The notes beneath the pieces were generated by a model that saw nothing but the letters and a program-made list of their open reading frames with translations, searched no databases and had not been told where the DNA came from. This document shows, one piece after another, positions 55,201 through 60,264 of a DNA stretch of 64,000 bases (the stretch's first letter is position 1; the number at the start of each line of letters is the position of its first letter). Origin of the DNA: Eledone cirrhosa (Eukaryota); NCBI GenBank assembly GCA_964016885.1, contig OZ024743.1, positions 112,778,001 to 112,842,000 on the forward strand, given 5' to 3'. The translations under genes and the position numbers were made by a program.

Positions 55201-55399
55201 TAACGAAGGAAATGTGGTAAGGAACCAGGTGGACCATAACGCACCAAAGTACTCAATACTTAGGGTAGTAGAGTGGGTAATAGGAACGAGTAGGACCCCG
55301 ACGGCTGAGCTCAAGCCGTTTCGACGGCTAATTCTGGACGTCCAGAATTAGCCGTCGAAACGGCTTGAGCTCAGCCGTCGGGGTCCTACTCGTTCCTAT
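55201..55399. mobile_element. Fold-back element with a perfect 120-bp palindrome (55280-55399) built from the 3' half of a hammerhead
   Basis: Symmetry centre ggac|gtcc at 55339/55340; each arm reads GAAA-cggct tgagctc agccg-TC-gggg. Confidence 0.8.
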
Positions 55400-55565
55400 A
55401 TATATATATATATATATATATATATATATATATATATATATATATATATATATATATATATATATAGATAGATAGATAGATAGATAGATAGATAGATATA
55501 GATATACATATAGATATATAGATATAGATATAGATATACATATAGATATATATTACTACAACAGA

Positions 55566-55650
55566 AGTCCGACGAGCTTTTGATTACAGAGTCGGGCCAG
55601 ATCGACGCAGATCGAACCTTGAGCTGATCATGAGCGAAACGCGCGTCACT
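55566..55650 (+). ncRNA. Type I hammerhead motif (CCGACGA core, long stem II)
   Basis: agt-CCGACGA-gcttttgatt...gatcatgagc-GAAA-cgcgcg-TC-act. Confidence 0.7.
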
Positions 55651-55808
55651 AATCAATAAACGTAATGAAAGCTTAATCAACCGTCCTTGTATTTTTATAT
55701 TACACTCTGTCTAGCTTTACACCTCGCTACGAACGTGAATCTAAACATGAAGTGCTCACCTGAGTGAACCTACAGTAAGTTCACGTTACACTCCCTGGAT
55801 ATATATAT

Positions 55809-56469
55809 AAATACAATATATAGAGGGGAAAGACACAGGAGAGTGTGTTTTTCATTACAGGAATTTCTAACCACCAGCGTGAGAAGAATATAAGCTACTA
55901 GAGGCATTGGTAAAACATTAAAATTAGAAGTATAAATTGAAATGAGAAACCATCCTCACCTAAATCACACATGTACACACTCACCAGGAGCATGTTTCGT
56001 CAGTTTAGTGGGTTCCAATACGGCCCAGTGGGTCATCAGCATGTGGAAGGCCAATATTGTCCGCACTACTAGAGAGAGAACTAAAATAAATTACCCTTCG
56101 CACGTGTAGACATAAGAGGAATGCGTGCTCGGGGCAGTAACTGGTGGCATGAACAGAACAAGCTGCTAGAGATGGCAGCCTATACTATTCAATTTAAGGT
56201 GCTCAACAGAGAGAGCGCAAGGAGCAAATGTCAAGTAAAAATAACGGAACAAAGGACTCGCGTATAATCCTGTAATTAAATGAGCTCAGAGGAAATAGTT
56301 TTCCTGGGCACTTTAAAATACAATATATAGAGGGGAAAGACACAGGAGAGTGTGTTTTTCATTACAGGAATTTCGAACCACCAGCGTGAAGAGAATATAA
56401 GCTACTAGAGGTATTGGTAAAACATTAAAATTAAAAGTATAAATTGAAATGAAAAACCATCCTCACCTA
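55809..56469 (-). mobile_element. 507-bp unit with ~155-bp terminal direct repeat and a hammerhead at 55968-56045 (-)
   Basis: 55809-55962 repeated at 56316-56469; cacatg-CTGATGA-...-GAAA-catgctc ctggt gagtgtg-TA-catgtg; base of stem II poorly paired. Confidence 0.7.
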
Positions 56470-56964
56470 TTACTATATATATATATATATATATATATAT
56501 ATAAAGAATTGGTATATCTACCAACATATATATACATATGTATACCTATGCAAGCAAATATATAAGCAAATATATATAACGTTGTGGTTCAATGCAAGGG
56601 GATGCAGAACAATTATATGAAAAACGTAAAATAAGAAAATTATAGTAATTAGCTTACTTACTTAAATTTCACTCCAACTAATTAGTTCTTTATAATTATC
56701 TCCAAATTATTTTGTTGAGCAAAAATTTGTCAAAATTACTACTATAATTCATAGTAACAGCTTGGCTACTGTCTTTTTAATACCCCACTCCTCACTGATT
56801 AACCTCGATGTCACGTGATTGATTCTTTTGAATTTGCAACTGAAGAAGGCAGTGATTTTTTCAGTGTCTTGGATTTTAATCCCCGCCTGCTCTTTTCCAT
56901 CCACTGTATATTTTTGTATAAGTTCCCTGTGTCCGCGCATCGCCAGGTATCTTAGCTGAGAATG

Positions 56965-57047
56965 ACTCCCTGATGACGAAAAGGTTTCTCCATAATCTCC
57001 ATTTGGGGACTATGTATATTCCCTTTCAGAAACTAATTAGTTGGAGT
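56965..57047 (+). ncRNA. Type I hammerhead in an inverted-repeat element (56617-56689 / 57028-57101)
   Basis: actcc-CTGATGA-cgaaaagg...ccctttca-GAAA-ctaattag-TT-ggagt. Confidence 0.75.
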
Positions 57048-57989
57048 GAAATTTAAGTAAGTAAGCTAATTACTATAATTTTCTTATTTTACGTTTTTCA
57101 TATATATATATATATATATATATATATATATATATATATATATATATATATATATATATATATATATCATTTATTGTTACTGTTGTTGTTGTCGTTGTTA
57201 ACGTTGTTGTTATTTGTGTTGTCATTAATGTTTGTTGGTATTGTTATTGTTACTGATGCTGTTGTCATGATTGTTTTTGTTTGAGGAGGTGTTGTTGCTT
57301 ATATGGGAAGTGTTCATATGGTTGTTGCAGTTGTTATAGTTGTTGGTGTTGTTTATTTTCTTGTTGCTGTTATGGTTATTGTTGCTGAATTATTTTTCTG
57401 TTGTAGTTTCAGAATCTCTACCACTCAAGACTACTGCTGGTATTTCCGAGATGAACCTGTTGTAGAGATTCTGACTTTATTGGAGGATGAGTGATGAGAG
57501 GATTATTACAGAAAACATTGAAGCCGTTGAACATTTCCTACGTTACGCCCGCGGATATTCTGAAACTTATATCAAAAGTGCAATATAACGAAATATTTAA
57601 TAGATACAGCCTTCTCATTAATCACAGTCATGTTTTATAATCTGTTTGTCGTTATTCAACAGGTTTGTCAACTTATTTGTTCTGACAACTAACAGAACGA
57701 GGTGCACGTGACGGGAGGTTATTCAGAACTGGGAAGGAATCGCCAATTGCTTTTTTTTTCTTTTCCATTAATGGATCAGCGGTCCAACAGTCCAAATAAT
57801 GACTATTCGCATTTAAATGTGGAATTGTGTATACTTATATTTTACATTTATATTGTGTGGAAATTAGTTGGAAAAAAGTTTACGGACGGTGTTGGAGAAA
57901 ATTTAGCTGTAAATTGTGGAACGTTTTGATTGGTTTAGAGGCAAGTTGAGACAGTATTGAAAGACCAACTGATCGCATACAGAAACTAT

Positions 57990-58240
57990 CAGCGCGTTGT
58001 GCATGAGTTGATGAAACGTATCTCTGAACAGTCGACTCAACAAAGCGCTTTGATGCCAACGAATTACTCTACAGACGCTGACTTCACTGCCCCACACGAT
58101 GAAGATCACAACCTGTTGAAATATTGGCCGCTTTCCCATAGGTTTGTTGTTGAACATTTTAGAGATTGGGACTTTGGAGACTTCTGGTGTTATTGGTCCC
58201 TACACCAACTCCTTACTCACTGCCATTAGGGCAGAGTAGG
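57990..58240 (+). mobile_element. Decayed CRE-like RLE retrotransposon fragment
   Basis: ttggagacttctggtgttattggtccc... translates to LETSGVIGPYTNSLLTAIRAE, homologous to 42516-42797. Confidence 0.55.
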
Positions 58241-60068
58241 CCAAGCATATGATTAAGTCCCGCGTGTTAAAATGGTTACTTCCATAAGTCTCCCGCTTAT
58301 CCTCCGTAGTAACGTTTTCTACATTCAGTTTGCTATGACAACGAGGCGGCTTGCATCTGGAGGTTTGCCTAATATGATAACTACATTTTCTCTTTCAGTC
58401 GTAATCATTTACATTGTACTGAGAGTGGGTGTAGGGTAGGAACGCACGTGTGGTATCTCTTTATCCAGAACAAGTGACGGTTTGAACGAGTGGATTAGTG
58501 CCCTCTTCTTACAGAAAAGCATATGCTTTTAGAGTCGCCGAAGAAAATACCGGTTTAGAGTACAGCACGGAATGGAAATACAAAAACAAACATTAAAAGA
58601 TTCGTTGGTTATGCCCCTTTATGTTCAAAATGCAAATCCTGCTGTGGTCAACTTCTTTTACTTTTCATCTTTCCTGGATCGATAGAATAAAATACCAGTA
58701 AAGTAATGGGACTTATTTAATGGAATATACGAAAATTAGAAGCTTTTTGACCATATAAAAAACACGTTCGTTCAATTAGCTACCCACTCTATACTTGTGG
58801 TGTACGTAGACAAACCGAGTATGTAATACTGGTCCAGGCAAGTATTTGTTCCTGTAATTATTCAAACCATCAGACTTTAACCACACTGGAAATCAATTGT
58901 CTCTGCCAGGCTGATTTGCCTTTGACACACTGTATACACTTCAATAGCTACCCAACCACACTAAACAATATGTTTATGGTTTCTAGAGGTTTCCATTTTA
59001 ATACCAGTTTAGAAAGTAACGTGTCAGTGAAGGGTGTTTAATCAGACACACAGAGCTTAGAAGATAACAACTTATTAACTTTACTATTGCCTGAAACTTC
59101 TCACATTAAAGATATTGTGAAAGAAAGCCCCAGAGATGAATAGTTTTATAACATATCTATTGAATATTAGACAGATTTGTTCTATAATAATACAATCCAA
59201 TTCTGTGTTCAGAGAAAAGATGGAATATGATTTCTCTGATTGGTAAATTAATTTCTTAGCAAATAGGCTTTCCTGAATAGCCAACAATGGTTGCATCGGA
59301 GCAAGTGTTTTCCTTAATGTAACTTCCCATGTCGCTTTAAATTGAAAATACATAAAATTCCCAGCCAGCAATACATTGGATATATTCTTGCATTAATCAT
59401 GTTTTCGACGTACATCAATATTGGGAAATATTAGCAAAGTTATAATAATTCGGTTATTGCTATCCAGACAATTTCTCTTTTAAAAGGGATGTGCCAAACA
59501 TAAGCAGAAACGTCAAGACTGTAAAAGGAACCGATATATCAAATCTATATGCTTTTATGCTTTATAATCTTTATCAAATGATGTACTGGAAACTTGCTTT
59601 ATACTAATAACATCAATTCCAATCTTAGAATTAATCAATGTCTCCATGTATATAGCCTATTAAACATTTCGTTTAAACTCTAGTTTATGTGATATTACTT
59701 GTAATTGAATCGAGGTTATTTCATAAACTGATGATCAACTAGATGATTTCTTTAACTAAGTGTCTACACACAACATTGTCAGTTAAGTGTCCTATAGATT
59801 TCTGTTAAAATCAAACGAAGAAATAGTTACTAGCCTACTGACCATGATATAAACCATGATTATCGAGCAACAATATATTTGCCACAGAAACAACAAAAAC
59901 AAAGTCTTTCTCTCTCTATGTTCCCCATTACTCTCAGACTAAGAACAAGAGTCCGAAATATTAGCTCCTTCACTCTTCACAATATTTGAACTCATAAAAC
60001 GGTGTGGAGGAACTCTTGTAGCAAACAATGAGCTAAGTACTCGGCGATGTGTATATATATATATATAT

Positions 60069-60264
60069 ATAGGAAAAAGTTTAACCCCGACGGCAGAGCT
60101 CAAGCCGTTTCGACGGCTATTTCTGGACTCAGAAATAGCCGTCGAAACGGCTTCAGCTCTGCCGTCGGGGTTAAACTTTTTCCTATTACTCACTCTACTA
60201 CCCTAAGTATTGAGTACTCTGGTGCGTTATGGTCCATCTGGTTCCTTACCACACTTCCTTCGTT
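60069..60264. mobile_element. Second copy of the half-hammerhead fold-back element (palindrome 60069-60186), opposite orientation
   Basis: Homologous to 55201-55399; 4-nt loop, one arm mismatch, (TA)n flanks. Confidence 0.8.

What the first reader, a model, noticed from the sequence alone, without database searches (positions are those of the whole stretch)
55201..60264. Two fold-back elements mirrored exactly at the hammerhead stem II loop, lacking the CUGANGA half
Seen: 55280-55399 (perfect) and 60069-60186 (one mismatch) are palindromes whose axis is the loop of a long hairpin followed by GAAA-stem III-GUC-gggg, so each strand has only the 3' half of an HHR. Arms match within a copy but differ between copies (gaacgagtagga vs gaaaaagtttaa; ctaattctgg vs ctatttctgg). 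Both short arms stop at the same cctat|(TA)n point. Inference: cDNA snap-back self-priming on stem II recreated at each insertion, or arm homogenisation in a ~200-bp hairpin element that might be cleaved in trans.
Basis: partly seen in the sequence, partly recalled or inferred. Interest (0 to 1): 0.75.

Follow-up and report, generated by a model that had tools for sequence, protein, structure and literature searches.

The report
Penelope mini-palindromes marking RNA start
These two 200-base mirror repeats are stub copies, among about 15,000 in this genome, of a Penelope-like jumping gene whose long copies carry the missing half of a predicted hammerhead ribozyme; each stub likely formed when both cut ends of the target DNA copied the element's RNA up to its start and were then joined.

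Summary
The palindromes are real. Both are copies of a 196-199-bp family (14,727 exact-pattern copies) flanked by (TA)n. A parent exists: a Hydra-clade Penelope-like element with an intact 718-aa RT/GIY-YIG ORF. Its pLTR holds the missing hammerhead half as CCCC-TTGANAA (U3-A8 variant) or CCCC-CTGAGAA (6,920 copies). The axis lies inside the large loop II but is not the tip of a stem. Both arms stop at a fixed wall (A of AGTCC) in an initiator-like context, often with an extra cap-like G, and centres differ from copy to copy (76 of 88). Long insertions end at the same two points, about +61 and +141. Best reading: twin priming from two nicks in (TA)n, run-off at the capped 5' end, head-to-head joining. 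A minor class (15 of 60 short copies) turns exactly at the predicted ribozyme cut, a likely fossil record of in vivo cleavage. MITE, artefact and arm homogenisation are rejected. No RNA was seen. This scan reported the same reading before on other DNA of this genome (e1-9564957, e1-9550100, e1-10348905).

The parts
55201..55399 (.). Copy A: whole mini-insertion (tail + long arm | short arm) of a Hydra-clade Penelope-like element; young subfamily
   Evidence: 7 genomic copies 100% identical over 199 nt, itself included, and all 40 scored copies 98-100%; long arm 99.3% identical to pLTR ends L212 and L236
55201..55279 (-). Copy A tail, RNA positions about +62 to +140; present only on the long arm; ends in TAT microhomology with (TA)n
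   Evidence: Matches the parent 5' UTR, which runs on into the ORF in L183 and L221
55280..55339 (-). Copy A long arm, RNA +2 to +61 read on the minus strand
55340..55399 (+). Copy A short arm, RNA +2 to +61, ends at CCTAT|(TA)n
55357..55383 (+). 3' half of the parent's predicted type I hammerhead: GAAA, stem III with palindromic loop, GTC, predicted cut between 55379 and 55380, stem I 3' strand GGGG; mirrored at 55296-55322 on the minus strand
   Evidence: Positions; parent fold; short genomic copies turn at this cut
55168..55202 (.). (TA)n target tract left of copy A
55397..55465 (.). (TA)n target tract right of copy A
60069..60264 (.). Copy B: whole mini-insertion (short arm | long arm + tail), older subfamily, between (TA)n tracts
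   Evidence: 3,399 candidates, the 40 scored at 94-100%; long arm 95.6% identical to pLTR end L233
60069..60129 (-). Copy B short arm, RNA +1 to +61 read on the minus strand
60130..60186 (+). Copy B long arm, RNA +5 to +61; predicted cut after GTC at 60164-60166
60187..60264 (+). Copy B tail, RNA about +62 to +139

Best explanation
The two elements are minimal insertions of a Hydra-clade Penelope-like retrotransposon, each made of two head-to-head copies of the first 61 and about 141 nt of the element's RNA, likely produced by twin priming: the GIY-YIG endonuclease would nick both strands of (TA)n, each 3' end would prime reverse transcription at one of two TAT sites (+61, +141), both cDNAs would run off the likely capped 5' end, and their free ends would be joined with trimming or filler. 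Shown: the parent, the identity of the arms with its pLTR end, the two fixed outer ends, the fixed inner wall and the variable joints. Inferred: that the wall is the transcription start, twin priming, and end joining. The start lies inside loop II of the pLTR hammerhead, so RNA begun there lacks the core's 5' half and could not cut itself; only read-through RNA holds a whole hammerhead, and its cut product likely gave the minor class of palindromes that turn at GTC/GGGG.
For: Parent: long elements with inverted pLTRs end in the same 141-nt piece; L221 holds an open 718-aa ORF with RT motifs, RWR, DKT, CxCx5C and a C-terminal VIY-YIG. Outer ends: of 88 pLTR copies, 45 meet (TA)n at +55 to +70, 32 at +130 to +146, 3 run on into the ORF, 8 other or unclear. 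Inner wall: in the first 90 listed of 14,727 copies (88 anchored), long arms start at +1 or +2 in 38 and short arms in 36; in the first 30 listed of 3,981 copies with longer centres, 41 of 48 arms that reach +1 match the parent upstream for 5 nt or less and none for more than 13. Context TTTAGT or TTCAGT in at least 79 of 93 pLTR segments (likeness to the initiator TCAKTY is recalled). Where a filler separates the arms, the base next to +1 reads as an RNA G in 9 of 18 arms, whereas the two common parent contexts have T or C there (binomial P 0.002 to 0.02). 76 different centres in 88 copies. Arms from two different elements joined head to head occur, including 3' ends of other GIY-YIG ORFs (L064, L065). 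Hammerhead: 6,920 copies of CCC-YTGANRA...GAAAC; the listed cores vary over all four bases at position 7; the fold with the core left unpaired is the minimum-energy fold in 3 of 6 parents and within 0.7 kcal/mol in 2 more; U3-A8 is a published PLE core variant (PMC4209133). Cut-site class: 15 of the first 60 of 1,228 short palindromes have both arms ending exactly at CCCC/GGGG, 9 of them with filler; 10 of 17 in the subfamily whose parents are all U3-A8 (15 of 15) against 1 of 15 in copy A's subfamily, where 9 of 14 parents have a C3-A8 mismatch (Fisher P 0.003). In vitro, a PLE protein cuts and extends both strands and starts at two internal RNA sites that define the tail (PMC11167929).
Against: No RNA, cap map or cleavage assay was seen. 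The cap signal rests on 18 arms. In the longer-centre class many arms go on with AAA(A/T), which may be a second start at -3/-4 or untemplated A. The wall also reads like a 3' splice acceptor (pyrimidine tract + YAG). The TATA-like word upstream varies between subfamilies. The two arms usually share one haplotype (61 of 90 identical against 11.7 in shuffles), which fold-back priming predicts equally well. The two-element chimeras came from pattern searches that favour them, so their frequency is unknown. 6 of the 15 cut-site copies are blunt CCCCGGGG and could arise by microhomology deletion; the subfamily contrast is post hoc and may reflect different microhomologies. Rfam does not recognise the parent hammerhead, and Pfam gave no RT or GIY-YIG hit for the parent ORF. 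All samples are the first-listed copies on contig C1.
Confidence: 0.72

Rival explanations
1. Same parent and same 5' wall, but one cDNA folds back at its 3' end and primes its own second arm (snap-back; the first reader's idea moved from stem II to the RNA end; self-priming was proposed for PLE palindromes in PMC3846280).
For: Arms mostly share a haplotype, including 5 haplotypes seen in only one copy. A 4-bp fold-back (ATTC/GAAT) is available near the wall and such joints recur.
Against: Fold-back from the long cDNA predicts a complete long arm and a trimmed short arm; both are trimmed alike and in many copies the short arm is the complete one. It does not explain why the short arm stops at the same +61 site as the ends of full-length insertions, nor arms from two different elements.
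Confidence: 0.15
2. Twin priming, but the wall is not a transcription start: it is an RNA-processing point (3' splice acceptor) or a pause site for the reverse transcriptase on longer RNA.
For: The parent reads pyrimidine tract + YAG at the wall. D. virilis Penelope has an intron in its pLTR (PMC2377424).
Against: Arms often keep the A and G that splicing would remove, and no constant exon or leader follows them. The wall lies 10 nt past stem II, in a loop, not at the foot of a helix.
Confidence: 0.08
3. A TA-flanked MITE or fold-back DNA element whose arms are homogenised after insertion.
For: Short, high-copy, palindromic, TA on both sides.
Against: No terminal inverted repeat at the element's two ends; the sequence is the pLTR end of an RT-encoding element; centres differ between copies; later mutations are mostly on one arm only (116 against 9).
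Confidence: 0.03
4. Assembly or library fold-back artefact.
For: Perfect palindromes can be artefacts (general knowledge).
Against: Over 13,000 dispersed copies with different centres, fillers and decay; contigs of a separate public run cross the centre in other copies (run X1, which may be the same sample).
Confidence: 0.02

Closest known systems
Hydra clade of C-terminal EN+ Penelope-like elements (Craig et al. 2021, PMC8557442; section 11 read whole, other passages; supplements not seen)
   Same: Single ORF with RW[K/R], DKT, CxCx5C linker, C-terminal GIY-YIG, CxxC and CxH around the conserved E and N; insertion into (TA)n; hammerhead in the pLTR; inverted 5'-truncated copy plus tail.
   Different: RWR for RWK; unit about 3.6 kb against generally under 3 kb; U3-A8 core with a loop II of about 35 nt; tail about 80 nt against 30-40; tens of thousands of copies, most of them SINE-sized stubs with a fixed inner end, which the passages read do not describe.
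Poseidon PAc of Anolis (Frangieh et al. 2024, PMC11167929; parts 1-2 of 4 read)
   Same: Two internal RT start sites whose spacing is the tail; both strands of AT-rich DNA cut and extended; uncut RNA is the main template.
   Different: Start sites here lie in the 5' UTR, 80 nt apart, and share TAT with the target. That paper found no reads at the hammerhead cut; here a class of genomic copies turns at the predicted cut.
[quoted passage not shown]
   Same: Type I fold in the pLTR, U3-A8 core, palindromic loop III, pairs of hammerheads close together on opposite strands.
   Different: Stem III of about 5 bp and a long loop II; the stubs keep only the 3' half.
Adineta vaga Penelope inverted pLTRs (Arkhipova et al. 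2013, PMC3846280; passages)
   Same: Head-to-head palindromes at the inverted junction, optional tail, TATA and Inr-like words in the pLTR.
   Different: That paper explains them by self-priming on an antisense template; the copies here fit two primings on the sense RNA better.
Metazoan non-LTR retrozymes (PMC7229834, search listing only; bioRxiv 10.64898/2026.07.22.740005, part 1 of 5 read)
   Same: Short, non-coding, hammerhead-related, PLE-derived.
   Different: Retrozymes are tandem monomers each with a whole hammerhead; these are single head-to-head stubs with half a hammerhead.

Membership tests
EN+ Penelope-like elements | Single ORF with RT and GIY-YIG endonuclease in the autonomous copy | tested here: met
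   718-aa ORF in L221 with FDIESYY, YRDD and VIY...YIG motifs; 2,218 relatives, about 40% identical among the best listed, none usefully named; no Pfam hit
EN+ Penelope-like elements | pLTRs from partial tandems plus an inverted 5'-truncated copy | tested here: met
   L183, L184, L221: direct pLTRs of about 500-770 nt and inverted copies
EN+ Penelope-like elements | Tail extension at one end only | tested here: met
   Ends at about +61 or +141 in 77 of 88 pLTR copies; the same two ends in the window copies
Hydra clade | RWK, DKT, CxCx5C, CxxC and CxH motifs; no CX2-5CxxC | tested here: met
   RWR 36, DKT 116, CNCPDRSIC 571, CNLCSEE 669, CKH after N at 688; CX2-5CxxC absent; definitions
Hydra clade | Insertion into (TA)n | tested here: met
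   TA runs on both sides of 30 of 30 copies
Hydra clade | Placement in an RT tree with reference Hydra elements; absence of CCHH by alignment | not tested
   No named reference proteins were at hand
Type I hammerhead ribozyme (parent pLTR) | Core YUGANRA with a 3-8 pair, GAAA, NUH and three stems | tested here: met
   U3-A8 in 73 of 93 pLTR segments, C3-A8 mismatch in 13 (set partly chosen by the pattern); three-way fold; no Rfam match
Type I hammerhead ribozyme (window copies) | Complete core on one strand | tested here: not met
   Only the 3' half is present
Type I hammerhead ribozyme (parent pLTR) | Self-cleavage | not testable with these tools
   Indirect only: 15 of 60 short copies turn at the predicted cut
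TA-TSD MITE (Tc1/mariner type) | Terminal inverted repeats at both element ends and a transposase parent | tested here: not met
   Inverted repeat covers only one end; parent encodes RT
Non-LTR retrozyme | Tandem monomers each with a whole hammerhead | tested here: not met
   Single stubs between TA runs

The most novel reading that the evidence does not exclude
These stubs are a genome-wide fossil record of the Penelope-like transposition reaction: one RNA is copied from two nicks at once on the sense strand, the axis of about 15,000 copies maps the capped start, and a second class maps hammerhead cleavage in the germ line, with cleavage tracking the 3-8 core pair between subfamilies. Placing the start inside loop II makes the hammerhead a switch that is absent from fresh transcripts and complete only in read-through RNA.
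Probability: 0.5. Interest if true: 0.7.

Novelty: new variant of a known kind. Interest (0 to 1): 0.52.

Why it matters
How PLEs build head-to-head inverted ends and tails, which RNA strand they copy, and whether their hammerheads cut in vivo are stated as open in the papers read (PMC3846280, PMC8557442, PMC11167929). Here thousands of stubs give base-precise predictions (start at AGTCC, priming at +61 and +141, cut after +41), and an intact ORF (L221) with a 141-nt template makes a small in vitro test possible. In practice, such stubs would be misfiled as MITEs or artefacts in repeat libraries. The element itself is a new member of a known clade.

Tried and rejected
Rfam on the window at gathering threshold: 0; Rfam on the parent pLTR at E up to 5: 0. 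Search for a canonical CTGANGA parent upstream of the same 3' half: 55 hits; the 40 viewed were joint fillers, chimeras with other elements or chance. Search for an upstream hammerhead cutting at AGTCC: 6 hits, chimeras or chance (5 viewed, the sixth). Sequencing runs: no RNA holder listed; this is no evidence on expression, and hairpin small RNAs could not be tested. PDB sequence search with the ORF: 0; Pfam: 0. Pol III or tRNA-SINE reading dropped by eye: the B-box-like stretch is the most variable part and the older subfamily has T5 inside; no tRNA scan was run. Neptune clade, my first guess, dropped after the motif check. Spliced-leader reading dropped: no constant sequence follows +1. A-to-G editing shared by both arms was not evident in a 30-nt stretch of 83 copies, a weak test. 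Target-site duplication cannot be read inside (TA)n. Literature searches that found no description of start-anchored or cut-anchored PLE mini-palindromes: (open-access library only; Repbase reports and the supplements of PMC8557442 were not seen and may bear on this).
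Full report
Observation. The palindromes are as described: 55280-55399 is perfect, and 60069-60186 has one arm mismatch and a 4-nt unpaired centre. Each is attached on one side to a 79-nt unique stretch, giving elements of 199 nt (A, 55201-55399) and 196 nt (B, 60069-60264) that are 89% identical and lie in opposite orientation between (TA)n runs. Rfam finds nothing in the window.

A large dispersed family. In the 3.0-Gb own genome, A gave 685 candidates, the 40 scored being 98-100% identical; B gave 3,399. 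All 30 copies viewed have TA runs on both sides. Exact patterns count 13,013 mirrored cores, 14,727 copies of tail + palindrome + TA with a normal centre, 3,981 with a longer centre and 1,228 with a much shorter palindrome; the reversed control patterns gave 0. These are lower bounds.

Finding the parent. Searches for a CTGANGA parent found only joint fillers, chimeras and chance hits. Loose ends of public contigs and three non-mirrored loci showed one shared sequence upstream of AGTCC. Searching with it gave 2,376 candidates, many as outward-facing pairs 1-7 kb apart. These are long insertions of a Penelope-like element: inverted copy, pLTR, ORF, pLTR. L221 holds an open 718-aa ORF with RT motifs, RWR, DKT, CxCx5C, a C-terminal VIY...YIG, CxxC and CxH. 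These match the Hydra clade as defined in PMC8557442, section 11, which also inserts into (TA)n. No tree was built, and Pfam and PDB gave no hit. The long arm of A is 99.3% identical to a pLTR end, that of B 95.6%. The 141-nt piece is the pLTR end and runs on into the 5' UTR and ORF.

The missing hammerhead half. About 40 nt upstream of AGTCC the pLTR reads CCCC-TTGANAA-G..CGGCTA. 6,920 copies match CCC-YTGANRA...GAAAC. Among 93 pLTR segments the core is U3-A8 in 73 and C3-A8 in 13, and position 7 takes all four bases (this set was partly chosen by the pattern and holds a few non-parents). CCCC pairs with the GGGG after GTC, and CGGCTA with TAGCCG around a loop of about 35 nt; this three-way fold is the minimum-energy fold in 3 of 6 parents tested and within 0.7 kcal/mol in 2 more. 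U3-A8 is a published PLE variant (PMC4209133). Rfam does not score it.

The two outer ends. Of 88 pLTR copies, 45 meet (TA)n at +55 to +70 and 32 at +130 to +146; 3 continue into the ORF and 8 are other or unclear. Long insertions often have one end of each kind, as the stubs do. Both sites end in TAT, which matches the target. In PMC11167929 a PLE protein cut and extended both strands and began at two internal RNA sites whose spacing is the tail.

The inner wall. I took the first 90 listed of the 14,727 copies; 88 could be anchored. Long arms start at +1 in 21 and +2 in 17, short arms in 22 and 14; the rest are trimmed, with similar spread (the few calls at +16 to +19 include anchoring failures). 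There are 76 different centres, some differing only by point changes. In the first 30 of the longer-centre class, 41 of 48 arms that reach +1 match the parent upstream for 5 nt or less and the longest for 13; many go on with A runs. The parent context is TTTAGT or TTCAGT in at least 79 of 93, like the initiator TCAKTY with A as +1 (recalled). Where filler separates the arms, the next base reads as an RNA G in 9 of 18 arms, although the common parent contexts have T or C there; copying of the cap as an extra G is known for other retroelements (recalled). D. virilis Penelope starts transcription in its pLTR at an Inr (PMC2377424, passages). Against this reading: no RNA was seen, the sample is small, the TATA-like word varies, and the wall also looks like a splice acceptor.

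One template or two. A diagnostic 10-mer is identical in both arms in 61 of 90 copies against 11.7 in shuffles; 5 haplotypes seen in one copy only are on both arms, while a few copies (L143, L131) carry two common haplotypes. Later changes are mostly on one arm: 116 unshared against 9 shared besides one subfamily marker, in 83 of 90 copies. So the arms agree because of how they were made, not through later repair. Some insertions join this element's arm to the 3' end of a different element, including two other GIY-YIG ORFs. Symmetric trimming and such chimeras favour two primings over one fold-back; shared haplotypes fit both.

The cut-site class. In the first 60 of the 1,228 short palindromes, both arms end exactly at CCCC/GGGG in 15, 9 with filler and 6 blunt; 6 have an arm running past it and 39 are shorter on one or both sides. 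This is the predicted cut after +41. Such copies are 10 of 17 in the subfamily whose parents are all U3-A8 (15 of 15) and 1 of 15 in copy A's subfamily, where 9 of 14 parents have a C3-A8 mismatch (P 0.003; post hoc, and local microhomology differs). PMC11167929 found no reads at the cut in Anolis, so this is indirect evidence on an open point.

Mechanism. Shown: parent, arm identity, two outer ends, inner wall, variable joints. Inferred: Pol II starts at AGTCC; the protein nicks both strands of (TA)n; each end primes at a TAT site; on the 5' copy of the sites both cDNAs run off after 61 and 141 nt; host end joining links them head to head. Priming at the 3' copy of the sites on read-through RNA gives the long inverted insertions; read-through RNA cut by the hammerhead gives the short class. 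Confidence in PLE origin about 0.97, in this mechanism about 0.7.

Known and new. Inverted 5' copies, tails, (TA)n targeting and pLTR hammerheads are known. PMC3846280 explains the head-to-head palindromes by self-priming on antisense RNA. Five searches found no description of start-anchored or cut-anchored stubs; Repbase reports and supplements were not seen. My reading was logged before I opened the scan's notes; several unreviewed notes on other DNA of this genome reach the same reading, one apparently on a family of the same size class. They are not independent support. They pointed me, together, from Neptune to Hydra. A look-up by sequence showed nothing.

Noticed in passing
window 54000-55178: Tandem and inverted PLE-like insertion (591-nt unit, 214-nt inverted arm) with U3-A8 hammerhead motifs on the minus strand at 54910 and 54319; copy A sits in its terminal (TA)n.
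   Followed up: partly
window 56505-57104: Another PLE-like insertion with a 74-nt inverted arm, a tail, and a C3-G8 hammerhead motif at 56970; a short palindromic relative in L001 (2425-2546) has one arm starting at the predicted cut.
   Followed up: partly
window 3406-3933: Fragment of a related PLE endonuclease region, 36% identical to the L221 protein.
   Followed up: no
window 55809-55962 and 56316-56469: 154-nt direct repeat, 96% identical, ending at (TA)n; weak hammerhead-like motif on the minus strand near 56039.
   Followed up: no
window 44321-49852: 30-nt tandem array of about 185 copies with extreme strand skew, possibly a Thr/Asn-rich mucin-like coding repeat.
   Followed up: no
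window 9907-11350: Three tandem copies of a 483-nt unit separated by (TA)n.
   Followed up: no
L001 1122-1213, L040 1792-1889, L053 2347-2404, L074 2793-2847: Other stub families with different hairpins share the tail word GTACTCAAT / GTATTCAAT with this family, a candidate binding motif for the RT.
   Followed up: no
L011 1795-1863 and L064 700-870: A stub of another PLE family whose axis falls at the predicted hammerhead cut of the parent 3' end seen in L064.
   Followed up: partly
runs X4 and X6: Parts of the element and its upstream pLTR sequence occur at low depth in runs labelled organism B and organism C; origin unclear.
   Followed up: no
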